37,580 nucleotides of DNA. Source: a virus. The notes under the pieces were generated by a model that ran no database searches, was not told where the DNA came from, and worked only from the letters and a program-made list of their open reading frames with translations. The first letter of the stretch is position 1; the number at the start of each line of letters is the position of its first letter. The position numbers and the translations under genes are program-made. Of this stretch, positions 392 to 8,405 are shown in pieces. The DNA lies in the IMG/VR virus record IMGVR_UViG_3300045988_049599, one strand, 5' to 3'.

Positions 392-509
392 TGTATTCCT
401 CCTTTAGCAACCCTCAAGTTCTTCATATTACCGCCACGGCGAAAGGGCCGGGTTAAATTTTTTTAGATAATAGCCCCGCCGATTTCTCGACGGGGTCGAC
501 GTAACTGTT

Positions 510-944
510 TTATCTAGCATCTTGTGCCTTGAAAGTCGTTACGGCTTCTTTTAACAGCTCCTTTTTAAACGTTTTCCATTCTCGGTGGTCAATCCACCAC
601 GATGCCGAATTATTTTTATAATATTTATCAGCAAATTCGTTAAGAAATTCTGCGAAATCGTCTCCAGCGCCTTTGCGGATCGCTGGTTTTTCCTTCTCGA
701 ATTCTTCGATTTTTTCTTTCCGGATCTTATTGGCCCACGCGACCTGTTTCTCAGATCCTTTTAATTCCGGAAGCTCACACTTTACAGCGAATTCTTCGGT
801 TTCCTTTTGTTTTTCTACTTTGTAGCAATCAGGGCACAGCCCATATTCTTCAAAATACTTAATTTTTCGTTCTCTTTCTTCGGATTTCCCGAAGACGTTG
901 ATGGTCCCTTGATGTCCGCAGCTGTATGTAATATTTACCTTCAT
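510..944 (-). CDS. Hypothetical accessory (moron) protein with an N-terminal Cys/His zinc-ribbon-like motif
   Basis: 144 aa with SCGH...CPDC near the N terminus. It has its own strong promoter (999-1028) and an SD (GGAGCGG) upstream of the ATG. No family recognised. Confidence 0.6.
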   Translation of the reverse strand: MKVNITYSCGHQGTINVFGKSEERERKIKYFEEYGLCPDCYKVEKQKETEEFAVKCELPELKGSEKQVAWANKIRKEKIEEFEKEKPAIRKGAGDDFAEFLNEFADKYYKNNSASWWIDHREWKTFKKELLKEAVTTFKAQDAR

Positions 945-998
945 TTTTACCGCTCCTTTCGGTTCACTTCCTGGGGTCTATCGCCCCTTTCTTGATTA

Positions 999-1028
999 TA
1001 TTGTACTGTATGTAGTACAATAAGTCAA
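999..1028 (-). promoter_or_regulatory. Sigma70-type promoter for the 510-944 gene, overlapped by a perfect palindrome (candidate operator)
   Basis: On the minus strand: -35 TTGACT (1028-1023), a 17-nt spacer, and -10 TACAAT (1005-1000). The inverted repeat TATTGTACT-N6-AGTACAATA (999-1022) covers the -10 and the spacer. Confidence 0.6.
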
Positions 1029-1084
1029 CCCCTATTTTAGATTTTTTCAGTTTTTTTCTTTTAGTTCTTTGCTCTCTGTCAATC

Positions 1085-1208
1085 AAAAGAAGCAAAAAGG
1101 CTTGCCATGCCGTTTTGGTAGACAAGCCTTTTTGCTTAATCGGGTACTAACGTACTAATCAATTTTACAATTTCAACCCTCGCGGTCAGAATATCTCTGC
1201 CGTGACTT
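1085..1208 (-). ncRNA. Candidate small non-coding transcript: an orphan promoter-to-terminator unit with no ORF
   Basis: A strong minus-strand promoter at 1215-1242 is followed about 120 nt later by the 1094-1133 terminator. There is no ATG-initiated ORF in between. Confidence 0.25.
1094..1133. terminator. Hairpin terminator (11-bp arms)
   Basis: AAAAAGGCTTG (1094-1104) pairs with CAAGCCTTTTT (1123-1133). T-rich tracts follow in both orientations. Confidence 0.5.
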
Positions 1209-1214
1209 GACTAT

Positions 1215-1242
1215 AGTATACCACCTCTAGCAAAATTTGCAA
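1215..1242 (-). promoter_or_regulatory. Sigma70-type promoter with an extended -10
   Basis: On the minus strand: -35 TTGCAA (1242-1237), a 16-nt spacer, TGG, then -10 TATACT (1220-1215). Confidence 0.45.
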
Positions 1243-1280
1243 TAAAAAAATAGCCCCTGGCCACGCTCATGACCAGGGGC
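1243..1280 (-). terminator. Rho-independent terminator ending the lysis and late operon
   Basis: On the minus strand, stem GCCCCTGG / CCAGGGGC (1280-1273 / 1260-1253) is followed by TATTTTTTT (1251-1243). Confidence 0.7.
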
Positions 1281-1312
1281 TTGTTACATTATTATTATGA
1301 TTTTATATAGGC

Positions 1313-1603
1313 TTACGCATTAGTAGATGTAGTGCTAGTGCTCTTGCTAAGTACAAACTTAACTGCCCAAATTGTGCCGTTGATCAAGAGCGGCAAAACA
1401 AATTTATCGCGGATGGCATTCCAGCCGGCTTCGGATGCCGCCTGTGCCTGTACCTGCGTAACAAATTTATCCGCTACCGCTTCGATGGCTTCCATGCCTT
1501 CGCCTGCCAGGCTGTCTAAAATCTGAGTTTTTGCCGCATCTACTGCATCATTAACATCCAATGCAGATACCAAACCGTCACGTACTTCTGTCCATTTGCT
1601 CAT
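1313..1603 (-). CDS. Hypothetical protein with a hydrophobic C-terminal segment, downstream of the endolysin
   Basis: The ORF track gives 1313-1669. Start chosen at MSKWTEV (1603), which is preceded by GGAGGG. The C-terminal segment LPLLINGTIWAVKFVL looks membrane-associated. Confidence 0.5.
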   Translation of the reverse strand: MSKWTEVRDGLVSALDVNDAVDAAKTQILDSLAGEGMEAIEAVADKFVTQVQAQAASEAGWNAIRDKFVLPLLINGTIWAVKFVLSKSTSTTSTNA

Positions 1604-1732
1604 AATTTTCCCTCCAATTTGTCCGGACCTGTCCGATGTTGTCCGGCCAGTCCAAAAATATAAAAACAAAATTTGTTATACTAAAGAGTTAATCATCCCC
1701 TTTCGCAGCACGAAAGATAAATGATCACCTCC

Positions 1733-2308
1733 CTATAACTCAAGATACCATTCGTTCATATCCACGTTGGTGTCCCCGATGTAGCCCTGGTCACTATACT
1801 GCCAGCCAGCCAGTACATGGCCAGGGAATTCGTCTGCAAAGTCGCAATGCTGGCTATACTGTGCTACCCAGTACGGGACATACTCCGCTAGAGACGATAC
1901 ACTAATGACGTCTTCCAGAGTAGACAGGCTGGCATAGATGCCGCACGGGATGCCAGCGGCATTGACTGCATTCAAAAATGCACTGCAAACCGCTGTCGGG
2001 TCATCCGCTTCCAGACAGGCCCGGGATTCAAAATCTAACCATACGCCCATGGGCGGAATCCGCTTGCCCAACAGGTAAAGTACTTCGTTGGCTTCGGATT
2101 CCGCTTCTTCTACGGTGGATGCCTGGCTATAACAATAAACGCCCCACGGCAAATCCCTCGTTTCGCATTCAGAAACATGTCCCCACCAGGTGTCTTCGAT
2201 GCTTGTTCCTTCCGAAATTTTTACGATGACGCCACGGACTCCGTTAGCTATAGCTGTATCGTAATTCAAGTCGCGCTGGTAGTAGCTCACATCAATTACT
2301 TTTGTCAT
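1733..2308 (-). CDS. Endolysin, glycoside hydrolase family 25 (muramidase)
   Basis: The N terminus KVIDVSYYQ and the overall length and pattern (GVYCYS, WLDFE, WQYS) are typical of GH25 lysozymes. It sits directly after a holin. Confidence 0.8.
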   Translation of the reverse strand: MTKVIDVSYYQRDLNYDTAIANGVRGVIVKISEGTSIEDTWWGHVSECETRDLPWGVYCYSQASTVEEAESEANEVLYLLGKRIPPMGVWLDFESRACLEADDPTAVCSAFLNAVNAAGIPCGIYASLSTLEDVISVSSLAEYVPYWVAQYSQHCDFADEFPGHVLAGWQYSDQGYIGDTNVDMNEWYLEL

Positions 2309-2489
2309 TCATTATATCCTCCTTTTTCGTAGTGGCGGTCTTGATATTACCGCCGATGTACCCGAGCAAGCCAGAGGCGATGGACATAGATAGCTCATTT
2401 AAGCCAAAAAAGATCGCTAAAATCAGTGCTGCTACTAGTCCCATGATGACCAGGCAGTCCGCTACGTTAATTTTATCAATCATTGGCAT
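2292..2489 (-). CDS. Holin (two predicted transmembrane helices)
   Basis: 65 aa with hydrophobic helices LVIMGLVAALILAIFFGL and IASGLLGYIGG and a charged C terminus. SD spacing suggests the true start may be the third codon (2483). Confidence 0.65.
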   Translation of the reverse strand: MPMIDKINVADCLVIMGLVAALILAIFFGLNELSMSIASGLLGYIGGNIKTATTKKEDIMNDKSN

Positions 2490-2495
2490 CCCTCC

Positions 2496-2708
2496 TTAAA
2501 CATGTTGCAGTACAGATGTCAGCACTGACGCGAAAATGCCGACGACTGTTACGCTGGTGCCGAGCGTCCAGCAGATGTCACGTTTTAAATCATCGATTCG
2601 ATGATGGGCCGACTTGCCAGAATCGATTGCTTGGACAACTTCGCGGTTGAGATTTGTTAACTGCTGCTCGATTCGATCTAATTTTACTGCCAATTCGCTT
2701 TCATTCAT
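2496..2708 (-). CDS. XhlA-like lysis-associated membrane protein
   Basis: 70 aa with an N-terminal coiled coil (LDRIEQQLTNLNREV) and a C-terminal TM helix (TSVTVVGIFASVLTSVL). It occupies the position of xhlA in PBSX-type lysis cassettes. Confidence 0.6.
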   Translation of the reverse strand: MNESELAVKLDRIEQQLTNLNREVVQAIDSGKSAHHRIDDLKRDICWTLGTSVTVVGIFASVLTSVLQHV

Positions 2709-2862
2709 TGTGCGCCTCGATTCTTTCTTTTAGTGCGTTAATGCGGCTCATCTCTTCTACAAATATGTTTTCCTGGCTAATTTCAGCAGCCATTTCTTTG
2801 ATTAGTTTGCTCTGCATCTTGATGATTTCGCATTGCACATCAATCAGCTCAGTCAGTGACAT
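2701..2862 (-). CDS. Small coiled-coil hypothetical protein (53 aa; below the ORF-track cutoff)
   Basis: Hand translation: MSLTELIDVQCEIIKMQSKLIKEMAAEISQENIFVEEMSRINALKERIEAHNE. Its start overlaps the upstream stop and its stop overlaps the downstream start, suggesting translational coupling. Confidence 0.4.
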   Translation of the reverse strand: MSLTELIDVQCEIIKMQSKLIKEMAAEISQENIFVEEMSRINALKERIEAHNE

Positions 2863-2995
2863 AGTCTTCACCAACAATGGTTTTGTATTCGTCAGTCGTA
2901 ATTTTTTCTTTCACGACTGCATTCTTGACCATTTTTTTCGTCCACCATCCGGCTTCATACCATTCTTTGATTTTCGTGTACCACCACTTACTCAT
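2849..2995 (-). CDS. XkdX-like small phage protein (48 aa; below the ORF-track cutoff)
   Basis: Hand translation: MSKWWYTKIKEWYEAGWWTKKMVKNAVVKEKITTDEYKTIVGEDYVTD. The W-rich N terminus plus the ITxxEY..I.G pattern is characteristic of XkdX. SD GGAGGAG lies upstream. Confidence 0.6.
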   Translation of the reverse strand: MSKWWYTKIKEWYEAGWWTKKMVKNAVVKEKITTDEYKTIVGEDYVTD

Positions 2996-3167
2996 CGCTT
3001 TCTCCTCCTTCCGCAATATTTTTCGTTTCTGCTGTCGACAGGTCTACGCCGCTCATCATTGCGACATATGTCGTTTGTGCTACGCTCTGATTGAGCTGAG
3101 AGCGCAGGGCTCGGTTTGTTGTTTCCGCTTTCTGTAAGCGCTCTTCCATTGTGATTACCTTGAACAT
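2988..3167 (-). CDS. Small coiled-coil hypothetical protein; lies entirely within the 3' end of the RT ORF in another frame
   Basis: The ORF track gives 2988-3242. Start chosen at MFKVITMEERL (3167), 7 nt after GGAGG. The sequence reads as a natural protein, whereas the co-linear RT frame is low-complexity and R-rich. Confidence 0.45.
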   Translation of the reverse strand: MFKVITMEERLQKAETTNRALRSQLNQSVAQTTYVAMMSGVDLSTAETKNIAEGGESDE

Positions 3168-4206
3168 TTGCATCCCTCCATAAATTTCTATAGTATTCAT
3201 ACATCTTTTTGATGATGTTATAATTGTTGCCGTGTGCGGCATGAGCGGCCCAACATCGCAGGCTCACATCGGCTGTATCGCGTGGCAGCTTGCCAGTTTT
3301 GATGAGCTTGACCATCTTCTTGAGCTTTCTGCGCTCGTGATAGATTTTATCCTTACTCAGCGTGACGAGTATCTTGCCGGACGGCTTAACGCGCAGCCTA
3401 AAGCCGAGCCATTTGAAGCCACGCGACACCGGCACTACACGGCATTTTCGTGGGTGCAGCTGTAAGCGGATTTTGTCAAGCTCACGCTCGATAGCTCTGC
3501 GATATTCCGCGGCGTGTTCTTTTCCATCTGTGATGATAATAAAGTCATCCATGTACCGCGCGTAGAATCTTACGTGCAACCGCTCTTTGATAAAGTGGTC
3601 CAGGTCATCCAGCACAGCTAGCTCGATGTACTGCGCCACGTCCGAGCCTAGGCCAATGCCAACATCGCCCGGGAAGCTGTCAATGATCTGATCTACAAGT
3701 CGGCACGCCCAGTCATCACGTACGCGCTTACGGACGGCGGCTTTGGCCACATTGTGCCGCGTACTGCCGAAGAAGCTCCTGATGTCATACGTGTACGCAT
3801 AGACATTATCGCCGTAAAGTCGGTGCGCCTTTTCGAGCATCATCTTGACACGCCGGATTGAGAAACCCGGTCCCTTGCCTACCTGGCCCGCCGCGTTATC
3901 GTAGATAAAGTGGCGCGTCAATTCAGCTGCCAAGTAGTTATATAAGAGCGACCGTTGGGCCTGGCGGTCGCGGAAGCGCATGGCCACGACAGTCCGCTCT
4001 TTGGGCTCATACACTTTAAACTCAATTTGTTTGCCGAGCTTGTACGTACCGTCCAGAAGCTCTTGACGTAACTTCTCAGTGTTTACAAGACCGTTTTGCA
4101 GATACTTGATGACGCTCGCTTTCCAGCGCACGCCATTCGAGCAGTGCTGCATGGCATCGTAGAGATTCCCAAAATTTGATACAATTTCTTTTGCTGATTT
4201 TTCCAT
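2992..4206 (-). CDS. DGR-type reverse transcriptase
   Basis: 404 aa. RT motif 5 is RYMDDFIII. A DGR-clade-like motif is GIGLGSDVAQYIELAVLDDLDHFIKE (compare the LGxxxSQ...LDHF pattern). It sits about 135 nt downstream of a TR. The last ~60 aa are low-complexity and overlap another ORF. Confidence 0.9.
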   Translation of the reverse strand: MEKSAKEIVSNFGNLYDAMQHCSNGVRWKASVIKYLQNGLVNTEKLRQELLDGTYKLGKQIEFKVYEPKERTVVAMRFRDRQAQRSLLYNYLAAELTRHFIYDNAAGQVGKGPGFSIRRVKMMLEKAHRLYGDNVYAYTYDIRSFFGSTRHNVAKAAVRKRVRDDWACRLVDQIIDSFPGDVGIGLGSDVAQYIELAVLDDLDHFIKERLHVRFYARYMDDFIIITDGKEHAAEYRRAIERELDKIRLQLHPRKCRVVPVSRGFKWLGFRLRVKPSGKILVTLSKDKIYHERRKLKKMVKLIKTGKLPRDTADVSLRCWAAHAAHGNNYNIIKKMYEYYRNLWRDANVQGNHNGRALTESGNNKPSPALSAQSERSTNDICRNDERRRPVDSRNEKYCGRRRKR

Positions 4207-4341
4207 AAAATTAAAACCGTGCTGATAGCGGGGCCGGCGTAATCCGCCCGCGTCACGGCATCTTGTTTGCCTCCTTTGGAGGACGGGCTTCGCGCTCCTT
4301 GCATCGGCTCTGATTTCGCTTTCGCTACTTTATCGGGCCCA

Positions 4342-4449
4342 TGTAATCCGGGGCGACGCCGCCCAAGTTGTACGCGTTGTTGTTCCACCAGGTGCGACCG
4401 CCATCGGTGACGTTGCGCACGTTGTACGCATTATCGCAGTTCGGCGACC
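4342..4449 (-). repeat. DGR template repeat (TR)
   Basis: 108 nt aligning without gaps to 4966-5073. All 18 mismatches are T on the plus strand, which is A on the transcribed minus strand. In the VR reading frame it contains seven AAC codons. The following 4207-4341 would be the spacer RNA region. Confidence 0.9.
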
Positions 4450-4458
4450 CTACAGCGC

Positions 4459-4905
4459 TCAGCCCATGCTCTTATATTTCTCGGTATCTGATTTTTTCCA
4501 TGCAAGCAGGAGAGGCTTGACTTTATCGAGCTGTGCCGTCCACGTCGCGATGTTGACACGCTTCTTTGGCTTGCTCGTCGTATCGATGTGGCGTAGCCCG
4601 CTGAAAAGCTTGAAAGCGGTATCCATCGCGGCGCTGAGTGCGGCGATGTCCGCAATAGCTTTCTGCTGATATGTACGCCGTAGCTTTGCGCTCTCGTAGT
4701 CATTGACGTATACCGAGTTGGCTTTTGCGATATGCATCTTGGCCTGTACAGCTGCATCAATAATCTGCTGTGTCAGGCACCAGCGGTAGCGCTTTGGAAA
4801 ACGTCTTTCGTCGGTGCAGATTTGTATTGTGTAGCACGCGAGCGTATCAGCTTCGACAAGCACACTGAGTGGCGTTGTCGTGCGCTTTGATTTTGGTATA
4901 GCCAT
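4459..4905 (-). CDS. avd: Avd-like accessory variability determinant (basic four-helix-bundle-type protein)
   Basis: 148 aa, basic and helical (FPKRYRWCLTQQIIDAAVQAKMHIAKAN...). It sits exactly between the VR-bearing gene and the TR, as in the Bordetella phage BPP-1 cassette. Confidence 0.75.
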   Translation of the reverse strand: MAIPKSKRTTTPLSVLVEADTLACYTIQICTDERRFPKRYRWCLTQQIIDAAVQAKMHIAKANSVYVNDYESAKLRRTYQQKAIADIAALSAAMDTAFKLFSGLRHIDTTSKPKKRVNIATWTAQLDKVKPLLLAWKKSDTEKYKSMG

Positions 4906-4923
4906 TTCTCTTCTCCTCTATCC

Positions 4924-4947
4924 ATCCGCCGCCGTGTGGCGGCGGAT
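4924..4947 (-). promoter_or_regulatory. GC-rich hairpin or cruciform downstream of the VR; candidate DGR target-recognition element
   Basis: Perfect 10-bp stem ATCCGCCGCC / GGCGGCGGAT with a 4-nt loop, 19 nt past the VR 3' end. There is no equivalent after the TR. Confidence 0.7.
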
Positions 4948-4954
4948 TCTTCGA

Positions 4955-6181
4955 TTATTCGATTCTGCAAGCCGGGGCGACGCCGCCCAAGCCGTACGCG
5001 CCGCCGCCCCACCAGGAGCGACCGCCAACGGCGACGCCGCGCACGTAGTACGCATTATCGCAGCCCGGCGACCGTTCCCACCAGGACCATTCGGTTGAGG
5101 TGCCCTGTTTGTATTTGCGGCGGTTATCGTCTTGTTCGGCATTTATTCCTGTCTTGCCGTCACGGCGGAATTTTGTGTAGTAATCCCAGACGACCGCATC
5201 TTCGATGTCCTGCACGGCCGAGCCAGGATTAGAGTAGAAGTTATCGCCGCCGTTGAGGTTGACCATCGCCGGCAGGAAGAAGTAATCCTGTGTCGTTTCG
5301 TGACCGCCGGCGTCACTGATTTTATTGATGTCCGTGATAAGGTTCGACTTCGCGATGACAGCAAGGAAATCGGCATCGAGGTCATTCATAAAGCCCGCCC
5401 ATGTCGCATAATGCTCAGGTCGGTCAAAATCATTGCGCGGGCTCCACCATGCACCCGCGCCTGCTTTGCTGTTGAGCCATTGTCTGAGTCCAGACTGGCT
5501 CCAGCGGTTGTAGCCATAGCAGACGCGCTGCGCATGGTTGACCGTGCCGAGTGTCGCAAGGTCCGTGCCGTTGGTGCCCTCTGTAAGCGTGACCGTCTCA
5601 AGCGCTGTCGTGTCTGCCGGCTTCGAGTAAGTCGCGATACCGAGGGGCGCGAGGCTGGTATCCCAGTCCATGCCTTTTGCAAAATTGATCTGACCGCCGG
5701 CTGGCACATCTTTTGTCGTCGTAAATTGCCAGCTCTTTGTCCAGCCGGATTTGCTAGAATCCGTCCAATTTGGATCCGTGATGCCAGACGTTGAGGTCGT
5801 AAAGTGATACGTGCCGGCCGGCAGGGTCGTCTTTGCGCGGAAAATCGCCTCGCGTGAATCAAACTCCATCGTATCCATCGGCAGGCAGTCATGCGTCTGC
5901 AAGATGACGTAGTTGCCGCCCGTCTCCTCAACATCGCCGATATGTACGATGTCCCATGTCAGCGTCGTATCGCCTTTCTTGCACTGGAGCCGGTCGCCTA
6001 CGCCGTAGTATGTACGTATGCCGCCGGCACGGCAGAGATTCCGGAAGCCTTCCCAGGATCTTACCGCCGATTCTCCGGCCGCTTTAAAATGATTTTTAAA
6101 AATATCGTTTTGCGATTCGATGGCCGCGGCGATGCGCGTGTAGTCTTCACGCCGCGGAAAATTTACAATATCTGTTGCCAT
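4955..6181 (-). CDS. DGR target protein; putative receptor-binding fibre-tip protein with a C-type-lectin-like variable C terminus
   Basis: 408 aa. The C terminus carries the VR on a W-rich scaffold (STEWSWWERSPGC...). It is located directly after the fibre-like ORFs. Confidence 0.85.
   Translation of the reverse strand: MATDIVNFPRREDYTRIAAAIESQNDIFKNHFKAAGESAVRSWEGFRNLCRAGGIRTYYGVGDRLQCKKGDTTLTWDIVHIGDVEETGGNYVILQTHDCLPMDTMEFDSREAIFRAKTTLPAGTYHFTTSTSGITDPNWTDSSKSGWTKSWQFTTTKDVPAGGQINFAKGMDWDTSLAPLGIATYSKPADTTALETVTLTEGTNGTDLATLGTVNHAQRVCYGYNRWSQSGLRQWLNSKAGAGAWWSPRNDFDRPEHYATWAGFMNDLDADFLAVIAKSNLITDINKISDAGGHETTQDYFFLPAMVNLNGGDNFYSNPGSAVQDIEDAVVWDYYTKFRRDGKTGINAEQDDNRRKYKQGTSTEWSWWERSPGCDNAYYVRGVAVGGRSWWGGGAYGLGGVAPACRIE
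4966..5073 (-). repeat. DGR variable repeat (VR) at the 3' end of the target gene
   Basis: Cognate of TR 4342-4449. It encodes SPGCDNAYYVRGVAVGGRSWWGGGAYGLGGVAPAC, where the TR encodes SPNCDNAYNVRNVTDGGRTWWNNNAYNLGGVAPDY. Confidence 0.9.
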
Positions 6182-6192
6182 ATTTCATCCTC

Positions 6193-6627
6193 CTATTGTG
6201 TCGTAATGACGAGGTCTAGGCCGCCGTCTTCGGTGTTGATTGCCAGCTGTACGCTGTCCGTGATCGCTAAAATTTCTTTTTCCTTGATAGCGTTCGCGGT
6301 CGCTTCGGCTTGCTGGGCGTATGTCTGGGCCGCATTTTTCGCGTCTACAGCTGCATTGGATGCTGCTTTTGTGTCTGCAAGATTAGTTTGTAGCTGTTCT
6401 GCTACGCCTTGGTCCCATACGGTGGCGATGTCCTCATATCGGGCGTCGCTGTCTCCGGTGTTTACTTTGACGTTTGTCTTTCCGTCGGGCTTTTTGACAA
6501 AGAGCAATTCGCCCGGGCGGATGGCCGGGTTGTATTTCTCCCAGTCCGCCGCTGCGGCGATAGAGTGCTGGATGCGCGAGTAGCCGCCTTTTGTCGTGGT
6601 TGTCGTATTCGTTGTGGTGTCTGCCAT
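6193..6627 (-). CDS. Fibre-associated protein with an Mtd-N-like / hyaluronidase-N-like N-terminal domain and an Ala-rich stalk
   Basis: 144 aa. RIQHSIAAAADWEKYNPAIRPGELLFVKK...VNTGDSDARYEDI resembles the GT.A.W...NP.L..GE....DT...K.GDG motif. It is followed by an A/N/Q-rich coiled region. Confidence 0.55.
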   Translation of the reverse strand: MADTTTNTTTTTKGGYSRIQHSIAAAADWEKYNPAIRPGELLFVKKPDGKTNVKVNTGDSDARYEDIATVWDQGVAEQLQTNLADTKAASNAAVDAKNAAQTYAQQAEATANAIKEKEILAITDSVQLAINTEDGGLDLVITTQ

Positions 6628-6641
6628 TATTTCTCACCTCC

Positions 6642-7100
6642 TTACATAGCAGCAGGGCCAGCGCCTACTATAAAATGTCCGTTCCCCATTTCTTTTGGGG
6701 GCGGACCGATGATGTCAAAAAGCATAGCGTTGTATGCCGCTTCTACGGCTTCTTTTGTGCCGGCAATGTCATCTTTGTCTTGTGTGGCTATATCTGCCTG
6801 GGCTTTTGCATCGGCAGCGGACTGTTTGGCCTGTGCCGCAGAGTCAGCTGCTTCGCTCAGACTGGGTACATGGACAGAGAAAATATTGCCGTTAATGTCG
6901 GTCATGACCAGGTTATTTTCTGAGTCGGTCGTGACAGATACAATCGTTCCCCGGAGCCATTTATTGACCCAATCCTCTTCCGTGCCCGTGTAGCCGTTCT
7001 GAACAGCTATGTCATAGGCACTATAGCCGCGTTCGCCACGTCGGGCGAAATGGCCGGAAATGCTGCCGCCGCTGCTCAAATGTGCTTTTAATGTCGCCAT
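6642..7100 (-). CDS. Tail-fibre-like protein
   Basis: 152 aa. It has the GERGYSAYDIAVQNGYTGTEEDWVNKWL motif common in phage fibre proteins and an Ala-rich stalk. The C-terminal peptide DIIGPPPKEM..FIVGAGPAAM is shared with 7584-8405. Confidence 0.6.
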   Translation of the reverse strand: MATLKAHLSSGGSISGHFARRGERGYSAYDIAVQNGYTGTEEDWVNKWLRGTIVSVTTDSENNLVMTDINGNIFSVHVPSLSEAADSAAQAKQSAADAKAQADIATQDKDDIAGTKEAVEAAYNAMLFDIIGPPPKEMGNGHFIVGAGPAAM

Positions 7101-7104
7101 CTCA

Positions 7105-7419
7105 TCACCTCGTTACGTCTGCGATGACCCGGAAAAGGGCCGGCCCGACGGTCTGCACTCCGCCGCCCTGGGTCCGGACCTCGATGTCATAAACATAGTC
7201 ACCGGCCTCTAAATCATTCGTCATTTCATGGGTTAGCGACACGACGCCATTTTGGACAGGGGCCTGGAAGACATACGCGTCGTCGGTAATTTTTTTCTTT
7301 ACGCTAAAAACAGCAGTGTAAGGTCCGATGTCCGAACCGTCTTCTTGTGTCAGATTTACGTCAAAGCTGTCCGTATCTCCACGGATATGATAGATGCTTG
7401 TGCCGATTATTTTCAGCAT
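7105..7419 (-). CDS. Small beta-sandwich (Ig-like) fibre-module protein, function unknown
   Basis: 104 aa with an all-beta-looking sequence (IRGDTDSFDVNL...YVYDIEVRT). It has an ATG start and lies within the fibre cluster. Confidence 0.45.
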   Translation of the reverse strand: MLKIIGTSIYHIRGDTDSFDVNLTQEDGSDIGPYTAVFSVKKKITDDAYVFQAPVQNGVVSLTHEMTNDLEAGDYVYDIEVRTQGGGVQTVGPALFRVIADVTR

Positions 7420-7424
7420 TTATT

Positions 7425-7568
7425 TCACCCTTTCTTGCAAATCGTCCAGCCGGTGATGAGCGGATGCGGCCACCATCGGAGACCCGCGCACGCAGTACGC
7501 ATAATCGCAGTGCGGCTACCGCTCCCACCAGCCCCACTCAGTCGAGGCCCCCTGCTTGTATCTGCCAT
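7425..7568 (-). pseudogene. Decayed fragment of a second DGR target C terminus (remnant VR plus scaffold)
   Basis: About 95 nt (7470-7565) align to 5023-5118 of the active target. The homologous frame reads RYKQGASTEWGWWER(stop)PHCDYAYCVRG and has a 1-nt deletion. The distal VR third, including the GC-rich 3' element, is missing. A 47-codon out-of-frame ORF begins MADT like 6193-6627. Confidence 0.6.
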
Positions 7569-7583
7569 GGTCCTTCACCTCCT

Positions 7584-8405
7584 TTAGCTCGATGCCATGG
7601 CTGCCGGTCCTGCGCCGACGATAAAATTAGCCACCGCCATGAACTCGGGGGGCGGTCCTACAATATCGTAGTACATCGCGCGATACATTTTTTCTACGCT
7701 GACCTGCACATCAGCTATCGCGGACTGCGATGCGGCGGCCGCGGCGGCCTGAGTAGATGCGGCGGTGGCACTCGATGCGGCGTCTGTAGCGCTGCTTTTT
7801 GCTTTGCTGGCATAGTCAGCTGCGCTGCTCATCGCGGCCTGAGCGTAGCTATTGCTTGTAGATGCATCAGATGCGCTTTTTGCCGCAGCGGTAGCGCAGT
7901 CGATAGCTTTAGCGGAATTTTCCTGGGCTAGCGCGACGAGCTCTTCGGCGGTCTTCGGCAGTACCAATTCGACCGTTGTTTTGCTGGTCGTGGCGATGCG
8001 CACGTGGAAAACCATCTGTACATTATTACCATCCGTCTTGCATGCTATGTAGCCAGGTGTACTATCGTAGCAAACCCCGTAAAGGATTTCTTTGCCGGCA
8101 CTGTCTTGCGCGAAAATGCCTAGCTCTGTCGCTTCATATCCAGCTTCTACTGCTTCGCTCGTCAGGGATGCAGTGAGTAAGCACGTGCGCACATCGCCGA
8201 CGTCCTCCGTCGTGATGCTCGTAATGATCATTGTATTCTGTGGTGCAAAAAGCGCCGATCGCGCGGCATAATCGTCGATGGTATTTGCCTGCCCACTACC
8301 GAGTTGCATCTTGGTCAGCTTGAGCGTGAGTTTGCCAGCCTCGACGTCCGCCATGAGCTTTGCGCCGGCAGTCGTCAGCGCGTAGCCGCTCGAAAAATTT
8401 GACAT
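7584..8405 (-). CDS. Tail fibre protein (tail-collar-fibre N-terminal domain, Ala/Ser-rich stalk)
   Basis: 273 aa. The N terminus (ALTTAGAKLMADVEAGKLTLKLTKMQLGSG) is paralogous to that of 8420-9385 and resembles the P2 gpH N-terminal type. The C terminus is DIVGPPPEFM..FIVGAGPAAM. Confidence 0.7.
   Translation of the reverse strand: MSNFSSGYALTTAGAKLMADVEAGKLTLKLTKMQLGSGQANTIDDYAARSALFAPQNTMIITSITTEDVGDVRTCLLTASLTSEAVEAGYEATELGIFAQDSAGKEILYGVCYDSTPGYIACKTDGNNVQMVFHVRIATTSKTTVELVLPKTAEELVALAQENSAKAIDCATAAAKSASDASTSNSYAQAAMSSAADYASKAKSSATDAASSATAASTQAAAAAASQSAIADVQVSVEKMYRAMYYDIVGPPPEFMAVANFIVGAGPAAMASS

What the first reader, a model, noticed from the sequence alone, without database searches (positions are those of the whole stretch)
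4342..5073. TR/VR pair with 18 mismatches, all at template adenines
4342-4449 and 4966-5073 align without gaps at an offset of 624. I counted 18 differences by hand, and every one is T in the TR plus strand, which is A in the transcribed minus strand. The changes are to C (13), A (4) or G (1). By my count about 25 adenines are available in the TR. No non-adenine position differs. In the VR reading frame the TR holds seven AAC codons (three of them consecutive), the codon design typical of DGRs. TR encodes SPNCDNAYNVRNVTDGGRTWWNNNAYNLGGVAPDY. VR encodes SPGCDNAYYVRGVAVGGRSWWGGGAYGLGGVAPAC. The shared 3' end is a GC-rich block (GGCGGCGTCGCCCCGG on the minus strand), consistent with an IMH-type element.
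Basis: seen in the sequence. Interest (0 to 1): 0.85.

Follow-up and report, generated by a model that had tools for sequence, protein, structure and literature searches.

The report
Complete phage diversity-generating retroelement (DGR)
This is a complete but ordinary diversity-generating retroelement in a Megasphaera-type prophage: a reverse transcriptase copies a template repeat with errors at adenines and so rewrites the tip of a tail receptor-binding protein.

Summary
Window 4342-4449 and 4966-5073 align without gaps, with 18 mismatches in 108 positions. All 18 fall at plus-strand T, which is A on the transcribed minus strand (p = 3.5e-15). The only slip is the substitution count, which is 14/3/1, not 13/4/1.

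The interpretation also holds. All parts lie on the minus strand, in this order:
- Target gene (DUF6273 domain, VR at its C-terminus)
- GC block and IMH-like end
- 10-bp hairpin
- Avd
- TR
- Structured spacer RNA (Rfam RT-2)
- Reverse transcriptase (best solved relative is Bordetella bRT)

The cassette sits between the tail-fibre genes and the lysis genes of a near-complete temperate myovirus-like prophage.

In 10 TR/VR pairs (this window and nine related ones), 161 of 266 TR adenines differ from the VR, against 10 of 814 other bases. TRs are conserved and VRs vary. In 44 homologous targets the nine most variable columns are all TR AAC/AAT codons.

Two refinements:
- The last two mismatches are fixed in every relative. 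They are an IMH/IMH* difference, not fresh mutagenesis.
- This TR has lost one AAC codon (now GGC).

Verdict: a new member of a known kind, modest interest. Activity in this particular prophage is not shown.

The parts
4955..6181 (-). DGR target gene (408 aa), putative tail receptor-binding protein with a C-terminal DUF6273 domain
   Evidence: ORF. Pfam DUF6273 49.8 bits (cutoff 23.5) at residues 220-407. phrog_19280 at 2.4e-39. AlphaFold model pLDDT 88.9. It lies directly after the tail-fibre genes.
4966..5073 (-). Variable repeat (VR), encoding residues 370-406; the mutable tract is 4986-5065
   Evidence: In 44 homologues the nine highest-entropy columns are all VR positions that correspond to TR AAC/AAT codons.
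4966..4985 (-). IMH-like 3' end of the VR: the GC block CGGCGTCGCCCCGG (4972-4985) followed by CTTGCA, which differs from the TR at two fixed positions (4968, 4971)
   Evidence: Mismatches at TR positions 103 and 106 are present in 10 of 10 pairs. A404 and C405 are invariant.
4924..4947 (-). Hairpin/cruciform-type inverted repeat ATCCGCCGCC-ACAC-GGCGGCGGAT, with 18 nt between it and the VR end
   Evidence: DNA fold -17.2 kcal/mol, z = -6.4, 0 of 200 shuffles as stable. The stem is kept in most relatives, weaker in L038 and with a mismatch in L006, while the loop varies (ACAC, CATC, CCTC).
4459..4905 (-). Accessory variability determinant (Avd), 148 aa
   Evidence: phrog_3206 'Avd protein of DGR' at 8e-13. 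Of 31 homologues, 10 hit Pfam bAvd PF22296 and 6 hit PF05635. One homologue is named 'four helix bundle protein' in NCBI.
4454..4465 (-). Upstream strand of the closing duplex (GGGCU..GCGCU). It overlaps the avd stop codon and pairs with spacer 4285-4296
   Evidence: RNAalifold. Helix 1: 10 pairs, 3 with compensatory changes, 98% of cells paired.
4342..4449 (-). Template repeat (TR), non-coding, 25 adenines; the IMH*-like end GGATTACA is at 4342-4349
   Evidence: TRs are conserved in 12 further distinct relatives.
4194..4343 (-). Structured spacer RNA between TR and RT (Rfam RT-2). Elements: stem-loop with GAAA tetraloop 4302-4343; invariant AUGCAAGGAGC 4294-4304; closing-duplex strand 4285-4296; short stem-loop 4270-4284; A-rich stretch 4261-4269; long interrupted stem 4216-4259
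   Evidence: RF03077 at 48.2 bits (gathering score 40), E = 2.8e-8. 11 pairs with compensatory changes, 98% of cells paired against about 37% in slid controls, 0 of 500 shuffles reach the observed value. Coordinates.
2992..4206 (-). DGR reverse transcriptase, 404 aa, catalytic residues intact (D141, YMDD 218-221)
   Evidence: Pfam RVT_1. phrog_1423 at 2e-88. The best solved relative is 8ub7_A, a 328-aa reverse transcriptase that I identify as Bordetella phage bRT, at 4.7e-26 over residues 9-339. Residue mapping.
7440..7568 (-). Relic of a second VR-bearing target gene, truncated, with an in-frame TAG and a 1-nt deletion. Not a functional part, but historically linked to the element
   Evidence: 80-82% identity to 5037-5118. 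Sequence and translation read. Alignment to the TR. The relic is also present in L001, L003 and L004.

Best explanation
The TR/VR pair belongs to a structurally complete diversity-generating retroelement in a temperate myovirus-like prophage, probably of Megasphaera (Negativicutes).

Inferred mechanism, by analogy with Bordetella phage BPP-1:
1. An RNA spanning the 3' end of avd, the TR and the spacer is transcribed from the minus strand.
2. It folds so that a duplex between the sequence just upstream of the TR and the spacer closes off the TR. The other spacer stem-loops bind the Avd-RT complex.
3. The RT cis-primes on this RNA and copies the TR into cDNA, misincorporating at template adenines.
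4. The cDNA replaces the VR at the 3' end of the target gene. Directionality comes from the IMH-like end (GC block plus the two fixed TR/VR differences) and the GC hairpin downstream of the VR.
5. The result is variation at the codons templated by the 22 adenines of the mutable tract, at the C-terminus of a DUF6273 receptor-binding protein made next to the tail fibres. This lets the phage change its host-receptor specificity.

Shown here: the anatomy, the adenine-only mismatch pattern, the conservation of TRs against the variability of VRs across relatives, and the covariation-supported RNA structure.

Inferred only: cDNA synthesis, adenine misincorporation by this enzyme, retrohoming, receptor binding, and the priming nucleotide, which I could not locate.
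For: - **Repeat and mismatch pattern.** 18 of 18 mismatches at TR adenines, p = 3.5e-15. All adenines sit at codon positions 1 or 2, and there are seven AAC codons.
- **Gene order.** Target, VR, hairpin, avd, TR, spacer and RT all lie on one strand.
- **RT.** Best PDB hit is 8ub7_A, which I identify as bRT, at 4.7e-26, ahead of group II intron RTs at 8e-10. The bRT nucleotide-site residues are conserved or conservatively changed: R74 is R71, I181 is L186, G182 is G187, Q187 is Q192, and the catalytic aspartates and YMDD are intact (residue roles from bioRxiv 10.1101/2023.10.23.563531).
- **Avd.** phrog_3206; homologues hit Pfam bAvd.
- **Target.** DUF6273, a domain already reported as a DGR target with the VR at its C-terminus (PMC11792537, PMC10743442).
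- **Comparative data.** In 10 TR/VR pairs, 161 of 266 A sites are mismatched against 10 of 814 non-A sites, Fisher p = 2e-105. TRs are nearly identical across 12 further distinct loci. The top nine entropy columns among 44 homologues are TR AAC/AAT codons. Homologues P0223 and P0235 have 0 differences in the 375 residues outside the VR and 11 within the 33-residue VR.
- **Hairpin.**, with stem conservation.
- **Spacer RNA.** Rfam RT-2. The closing duplex, adjacent stem-loop, A-rich stretch and long stem, with covariation, follow the order of Avd-binding stem-loop, cPRT Stop, Thumb Ring and bRT-binding elements described for BPP-1.
- **Phage context.**
Against: - No direct evidence of activity in this prophage. 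Two other assemblies (Logan SRR5091564, ENA ERZ773393) are 100% identical to the window over about 6 kb, including the VR. No VR change is seen within this strain, although the independence of those samples is unknown.
- This TR has lost one AAC codon that all 12 other TRs keep.
- The RT has AQ where bRT has the SQ of its IGSLTSQ motif.
- The window's Avd does not itself reach any Pfam threshold and has no sequence match in the PDB, even as a profile.
- Foldseek did not connect the target model to Mtd, TvpA or any other C-type-lectin DGR variable protein. The only hit was the DUF6273 N-terminal domain of an IgA protease.
- I could not identify a convincing TR:spacer template-primer duplex or a priming adenosine.
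- No sigma-70-like promoter was found on the minus strand of the cassette.
Confidence: 0.93

Rival explanations
1. The element is a fossil DGR. It is structurally intact but no longer diversifies in this prophage, so the 16 variable mismatches record past activity only.
For: Three assemblies of this strain have an identical VR. The TR has lost one AAC codon. The same tail region carries a decayed VR relic. Relatives show decay by other routes: a truncated RT in L008/L039 and a VR-TR deletion in L098.
Against: The RT, Avd, TR, spacer RNA, IMH-like end and hairpin are all intact, and catalytic residues are conserved. 22 adenines remain in the mutable tract. Sister lineages differ only in the VR. 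Consensus assemblies cannot reveal minority VR variants.
Confidence: 0.25
2. The pair is an ordinary duplication whose divergence reflects a strand-biased mutation process (for example T-to-C drift toward high GC) with no reverse transcriptase involved.
For: 14 of 18 changes are T>C on the plus strand, and the VR copy is GC-richer.
Against: Zero of 83 non-T positions differ. Four changes are transversions. The same adenine-restricted pattern with different substitutions recurs in nine independent relatives, where A>T is 33% and A>C is 12% of changes. The template copy is conserved while the ORF copy varies. A DGR-type RT, Avd and spacer RNA lie between and beside the copies.
Confidence: 0.01
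3. The roles are reversed or bidirectional: 4966-5073 is the master copy and 4342-4449 receives information.
For: One TR codon (4361-4363, GGC) matches its own VR rather than the AAC of all other TRs. L098 shows that VR and TR can recombine.
Against: Across relatives the RT-proximal copy is conserved and A-rich, while the ORF copy is hypervariable exactly at those adenines. The IMH/IMH* differences are fixed. At most this explains one codon, through rare gene conversion.
Confidence: 0.03

Closest known systems
Bordetella phage BPP-1 DGR (mtd-avd-TR-brt)
   Same: Same gene order and same position between the tail-fibre and lysis genes. VR at the C-terminal end of the receptor-binding protein. 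Adenine-only TR/VR differences with AAC codon design. A 14-nt GC-rich block at the 3' end of the repeats with a few fixed TR/VR differences after it. A GC hairpin with a 4-nt loop downstream of the VR. The RT is the closest solved relative. The spacer RNA elements follow the same order.
   Different: The 404-aa RT has about 60 extra C-terminal residues compared with the 328-aa bRT, and AQ in place of SQ. The target is a DUF6273 protein with no detectable sequence or Foldseek similarity to Mtd. The spacer belongs to Rfam RT-2, whereas BPP-1's spacer is RT-10 (PMC5737381). The host is a Negativicutes gut anaerobe.
DGRs of Faecalibacterium prophages (Lelie, Roos, Pioen, CP11) and gut phages nd4/nd12, which have DUF6273 targets
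   Different: A different host lineage (Megasphaera or Acidaminococcus relatives). There is a single intact target here, against two targets in several of those phages, plus a decayed relic of a second. No megablast-level DNA similarity to any deposited phage record.
Rfam RF03077 RT-2 RNA (Weinberg et al. 2017, PMC5737381)
   Same: The TR-RT spacer scores above the curated threshold (48.2 against 40) over the full model.
   Different: The family was described only as 'near RT genes', with no assigned role. Here, and in Adlercreutzia L043, it starts immediately after a TR. That identifies it as a DGR spacer RNA. The window copy lacks two large insertions of the consensus.

Membership tests
Diversity-generating retroelement (DGR) | Template/variable repeat pair whose differences are confined to template adenines | tested here: met
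   18 of 18 mismatches at TR adenines, 0 of 83 at other bases, p = 3.5e-15.
Diversity-generating retroelement (DGR) | Reverse transcriptase of the DGR type encoded next to the TR | tested here: met
   The RT begins 135 nt after the TR. The best PDB hit is 8ub7_A, which I identify as bRT, at 4.7e-26 over the full length. phrog_1423 at 2e-88. The catalytic aspartates and the equivalents of R74, G182 and Q187 are conserved. One deviation: AQ instead of SQ.
Diversity-generating retroelement (DGR) | VR inside the 3' end of a protein-coding target gene, with a non-coding TR | tested here: met
   The VR encodes residues 370-406 of the 408-aa ORF 4955-6181. The TR lies between the avd stop codon (4459) and the spacer.
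Diversity-generating retroelement (DGR) | Accessory protein Avd (in the Avd-containing class) | tested here: met
   phrog_3206 'Avd protein of DGR' at 8e-13. 10 of 31 homologues hit Pfam bAvd and 6 hit PF05635. The window protein itself is below Pfam thresholds and has no PDB sequence hit.
Diversity-generating retroelement (DGR) | IMH at the VR 3' end that differs from IMH* at the TR; GC-rich element | tested here: met
   The identical 14-nt GC block is followed by two TR/VR differences that are fixed in 10 of 10 pairs. The function of the element could not be tested.
Diversity-generating retroelement (DGR) | Hairpin/cruciform downstream of the VR | tested here: met
   10-bp stem, 4-nt loop, z = -6.4. 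The stem is conserved and the loop variable in relatives.
Diversity-generating retroelement (DGR) | Among relatives the VR is hypervariable at TR-adenine codons while the TR is conserved | tested here: met
Diversity-generating retroelement (DGR) | Structured RNA flanking the TR (avd:spacer duplex, Avd-binding and RT-binding stem-loops) | tested here: met
   (11 compensatory pairs). The order of elements matches bioRxiv 10.1101/2023.10.23.563531. The template:primer duplex and the priming nucleotide were not identified.
Diversity-generating retroelement (DGR) | Adenine-mutagenic cDNA synthesis and retrohoming actually occur | not testable with these tools
   This needs read-level or experimental data. 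Three assemblies of the strain share one VR.
C-type-lectin-fold DGR variable proteins (Mtd, TvpA) | VR displayed on a C-type lectin fold | tested here: inconclusive
Pfam DUF6273 (PF19789) | Score above the curated gathering threshold | tested here: met
   49.8 bits against 23.5, residues 220-407.
Rfam RT-2 RNA (RF03077) | Score above the curated gathering threshold, full-length match | tested here: met
   48.2 bits against 40, model positions 1-222.
Group II intron RT, retron RT, and defence RTs (Drt2, Drt3a, Drt4) | NCBIfam equivalog score cut-off | tested here: not met
   75 bits against 300 (group II), 67 against 200 (Drt3a), 26 against 235 (retron); Drt2 and Drt4 also fall far below their cut-offs.

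The most novel reading that the evidence does not exclude
Information may occasionally flow backwards, from VR to TR. This TR alone carries GGC, identical to its own VR, where all 12 other TRs in the family keep AAC. A relative (L098) shows a VR/TR recombination product. If VR-to-TR gene conversion is real, DGR templates would be slowly 'edited' by their own products, freezing positions and shrinking the accessible repertoire.

Separately, the Rfam orphan families RT-2 and RT-14 appear to be DGR cis-priming spacer RNAs. They are shared from Negativicutes phages to Actinobacteria.
Probability: 0.3. Interest if true: 0.45.

Novelty: new member of a known kind. Interest (0 to 1): 0.27.

Why it matters
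The finding is a clean, fully parsed DGR for a host group, Megasphaera and relatives. No paper in the searched library describes DGR prophages for this group.

It comes with a comparative panel that shows which residues of the receptor-binding tip are diversified. That is useful for annotating gut viromes and for choosing a tractable DUF6273 target to study.

It also gives a functional context, the DGR spacer RNA, to the Rfam families RT-2 and RT-14, which had no assigned role.

It does not change what is known about how DGRs work.

Tried and rejected
- **Megablast of the cassette against 50,697 phage records:** no match.
- **Foldseek of the target model against the PDB:** I was looking for Mtd or TvpA. 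Only the IgA-protease DUF6273 domain matched. A C-terminal-domain-only model was poorer (pLDDT 66) and gave the same single hit.
- **Avd against PDB sequences, alone and as a 31-sequence profile:** no meaningful hit.
- **Single-sequence fold of the spacer:** not more stable than shuffles, z = -0.46. The support for structure comes only from covariation.
- **Manual search for a TR 3'-end:spacer priming duplex and a priming adenosine:** nothing convincing or covarying. I rejected a candidate pairing of CUGUAG upstream of the TR with CUAUCAG in the spacer because it does not covary in L038 or L085.
- **Promoter scan:** no minus-strand sigma-70-like site in 2600-6700, and the counts were no higher than in shuffles.
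- **Search for a second intact VR:** none in the window. The 7440-7568 fragment is a decayed relic.
- **Pattern scans of viral and metagenome contigs with the IMH*-containing TR end:** these added only a few new loci.
- **Looking for a same-strain VR variant through exact-RT contigs:** only identical copies were found.
Full report
**1. Observation**

The repeat finder reports 4342-4449 and 4966-5073 as a 108-nt ungapped direct repeat, 83% identical, offset 624. My base-by-base table gives 18 mismatches, all at plus-strand T, which is A on the minus strand. The TR holds 25 such bases. The probability that all 18 fall on them by chance is 3.5e-15. Identity stops sharply at both ends, and no other copy exists on either strand. 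There are seven AAC codons (three consecutive) and one AAT, and all 25 adenines sit at codon positions 1 or 2.

**2. Anatomy**

Everything lies on the minus strand, in this order:

| Element | Coordinates | Evidence |
|---|---|---|
| Target ORF, 408 aa | 4955-6181 | Pfam DUF6273 at residues 220-407, 49.8 bits against a cutoff of 23.5 |
| VR, residues 370-406 | 4966-5073 | |
| GC hairpin, 10-bp stem, 4-nt loop | 4924-4947 | -17.2 kcal/mol, z = -6.4 |
| Avd, 148 aa | 4459-4905 | phrog_3206 'Avd protein of DGR' at 8e-13; 10 of 31 homologues hit Pfam bAvd |
| TR | 4342-4449 | |
| Spacer, 135 nt | 4207-4341 | Rfam RT-2 |
| RT, 404 aa | 2992-4206 | RVT_1; phrog_1423 at 2e-88 |

The RT's best solved relative is 8ub7_A, a 328-aa reverse transcriptase that I identify as the Bordetella phage bRT. 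It matches at 4.7e-26 over residues 9-339, well ahead of group II intron RTs at 8e-10. NCBIfam models for group II, retron and Drt RTs all score far below their cut-offs. The catalytic D141 and YMDD (218-221) are intact. The bRT nucleotide-site residues R74, I181, G182 and Q187 correspond to R71, L186, G187 and Q192. The S of the bRT 'SQ' is A191 here (residue roles from bioRxiv 10.1101/2023.10.23.563531).

**3. Context**

The window is a near-complete temperate prophage with a contractile tail. It encodes:
- integrase, repressors and a replication initiator;
- a methyltransferase;
- terminase, portal and capsid;
- sheath, tape measure and baseplate;
- two tail-fibre genes, then the DGR;
- XkdX-like and XhlA-like genes and a GH25 endolysin.

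The target gene directly follows the fibre genes, as mtd does in BPP-1. Relatives occur in Acidaminococcus fermentans and Megasphaera genomes. One close target homologue is a RefSeq protein of Megasphaera sp. BL7.

**4.

I compared ten distinct TR/VR pairs: this window plus nine relatives with RT identity of about 70-92%.
- 161 of 266 TR adenines differ from the cognate VR, against 10 of 814 other bases (Fisher p = 2e-105).
- TRs from 12 further distinct loci are nearly identical and differ mostly at non-adenine positions.
- In an alignment of 44 close target homologues, the nine highest-entropy columns of the whole protein are VR residues 373, 376, 379, 382, 392, 393, 394, 397 and 399. These are the AAC/AAT codons of the family's TRs.
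- Two homologues of a sister lineage (P0223 and P0235) have no difference in the 375 residues outside the VR and 11 differences within the 33-residue VR. The family has therefore diversified very recently.
- The substitution spectrum at mutated adenines in the family is G 55%, T 33%, C 12%. The window's VR is at the G-rich extreme, with 13 G and 3 T.

**5.

(a) The two 3'-most mismatches (TR GGATTACA against VR GGCTTGCA; plus-strand 4347 and 4344) are present and identical in all ten pairs. The encoded residues A404 and C405 are invariant in 44 homologues. They are therefore a fixed IMH/IMH*-type difference, not the product of recent mutagenesis, which leaves 16 mutagenic differences among the 22 adenines of the mutable tract. 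The GC block itself (CGGCGTCGCCCCGG) is identical in TR and VR, so alone it cannot give directionality.

(b) This TR is unique in having GGC at 4361-4363. All 12 other TRs have AAC there, and that residue (399) is the third most variable position in the family. This phage has frozen one diversifiable position, and the frozen state equals its own VR.

**6. RNA elements**

Rfam's RT-2 model (RF03077) matches 4194-4342 on the minus strand at 48.2 bits against a gathering score of 40. I aligned 11 relatives across the avd 3' end, the TR and the spacer. The consensus fold has 42 pairs in the elements I specified:
- 98% of cells are paired, against 35-46% when partners are slid by 1-3 columns.
- 11 pairs show compensatory double changes, against 0-3 in the slid controls.
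- 0 of 500 shuffles reach the observed covariation.

The elements, 5' to 3', are:
1. A strand overlapping the avd stop codon (4454-4465) that pairs with spacer 4285-4296. Three of these pairs have compensatory changes.
2. A stem-loop starting at the TR end and capped by GAAA (4302-4343).
3. An invariant AUGCAAGGAGC (4294-4304).
4. A short stem-loop (4270-4284).
5. An A-rich single strand, CAAACAAGA (4261-4269).
6. A long interrupted stem (4216-4259).

This order parallels the elements of the Bordetella RNP: the Avd-binding stem-loop, the primer strand, the avd:Sp 'cPRT Stop' duplex with its stem-loop and adenosines, the Thumb Ring and the bRT-binding stem. I could not identify the template:primer duplex or the priming nucleotide.

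**7. Target protein**

**8. What is not shown**

Activity in this prophage is not shown. Two other assemblies (SRR5091564, ERZ773393) are 100% identical to the window over about 6 kb, including the VR. Consensus assemblies cannot reveal minority variants, so this is weak evidence either way.

**9. Verdict**

The element is a canonical Avd-type phage DGR, a new member of a known kind. The points with some novelty value are the assignment of Rfam RT-2 (and RT-14) to DGR spacers, the loss of a TR adenine codon that matches the element's own VR, and the decayed second-target relic.

Noticed in passing
window 7440-7568 (minus strand): Relic of a second VR-bearing target gene between the tail-fibre ORF 7584-8405 and ORF 7105-7419. 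It has 80-82% identity to the last conserved part of the target plus the 5' half of the VR. Against the TR it shows 7 adenine-site changes, at least 4 non-adenine changes, a 1-nt deletion, an in-frame TAG and a truncated 3' end with no IMH. Its start (RBS plus ATGGCAGAYAC) resembles the start of ORF 6193-6627, which suggests an internal deletion in a duplicated fibre/target module. The relic is also present in L001, L003 and L004, but not in L005, L006 or L038.
   Followed up: partly
window 4361-4363 (TR positions 87-89): This TR has GGC where all 12 other TRs of the family have AAC. The GGC equals the cognate VR codon. This could be VR-to-TR gene conversion or two independent A>G changes. Position 399 of the protein is thereby frozen.
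   Followed up: partly
L098, around 1880-2060: The TR-type repeat (IMH* end GGATTACA, followed by the spacer and RT) is fused directly to the target gene body. The VR and avd are gone, and the repeat's 5' part carries a VR-like A-site change (AAC to TTC). This is apparently a deletion by recombination between VR and TR.
   Followed up: no
L006, around 4185-4230: The VR carries a 21-nt tandem duplication (GCGTACGGCTGGGGCGGCGTC, two copies) just before the IMH-like end, which lengthens the variable tip by 7 residues.
   Followed up: no
L039 (Megasphaera sp. AM44-1BH) 5293-6480, and L008: The target C-terminus and VR are present at 87% identity, but the RT match covers only residues 245-404 and no TR was found. 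This is a decayed DGR in a cultured isolate.
   Followed up: no
L043 5563-5924 (Adlercreutzia caecimuris B7) and L014 4730-4980: Rfam RT-2 (130.9 bits) and RT-14 (71.2 bits) begin immediately after TRs whose mismatches to their VRs are 13 of 13 and 11 of 11 at adenines. Both orphan 'RT' RNA families are therefore DGR TR-RT spacer RNAs. Only RT-10 had been linked to a DGR (PMC5737381), and no paper in the searched library links RT-2.
   Followed up: partly
window 6642-7100 and 7584-8405 (minus strand): The two ORFs end with the same motif (DI[IV]GPPP..FIVGAGPAAM), and both are followed by small ORFs. This points to a tandem duplication of a tail-fibre module.
   Followed up: no
protein P0224 (homologue of the target): Its VR reads ...VRNVTDGGRAWWNNNAYNWNGVAPAC, close to the unmutated TR translation. 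It looks like a recently reset or never-diversified VR.
   Followed up: no
L100 and L101 (SRR5091564, ERZ773393): Contigs from two other assemblies are 100% identical to window 1180-7206 and 415-6195 respectively, including the VR. The longest contig recorded for the exact target protein is 37,580 bases, the same length as the window.
   Followed up: yes
window 2992-3170 (RT residues about 345-404): Compared with bRT, the RT has a C-terminal extension of about 60 residues that is basic and low in complexity. It overlaps the start of the next gene (XkdX-like, 2849-2995) by 4 nt. The RT matches in L006 and L038 stop at residues 385-387.
   Followed up: no
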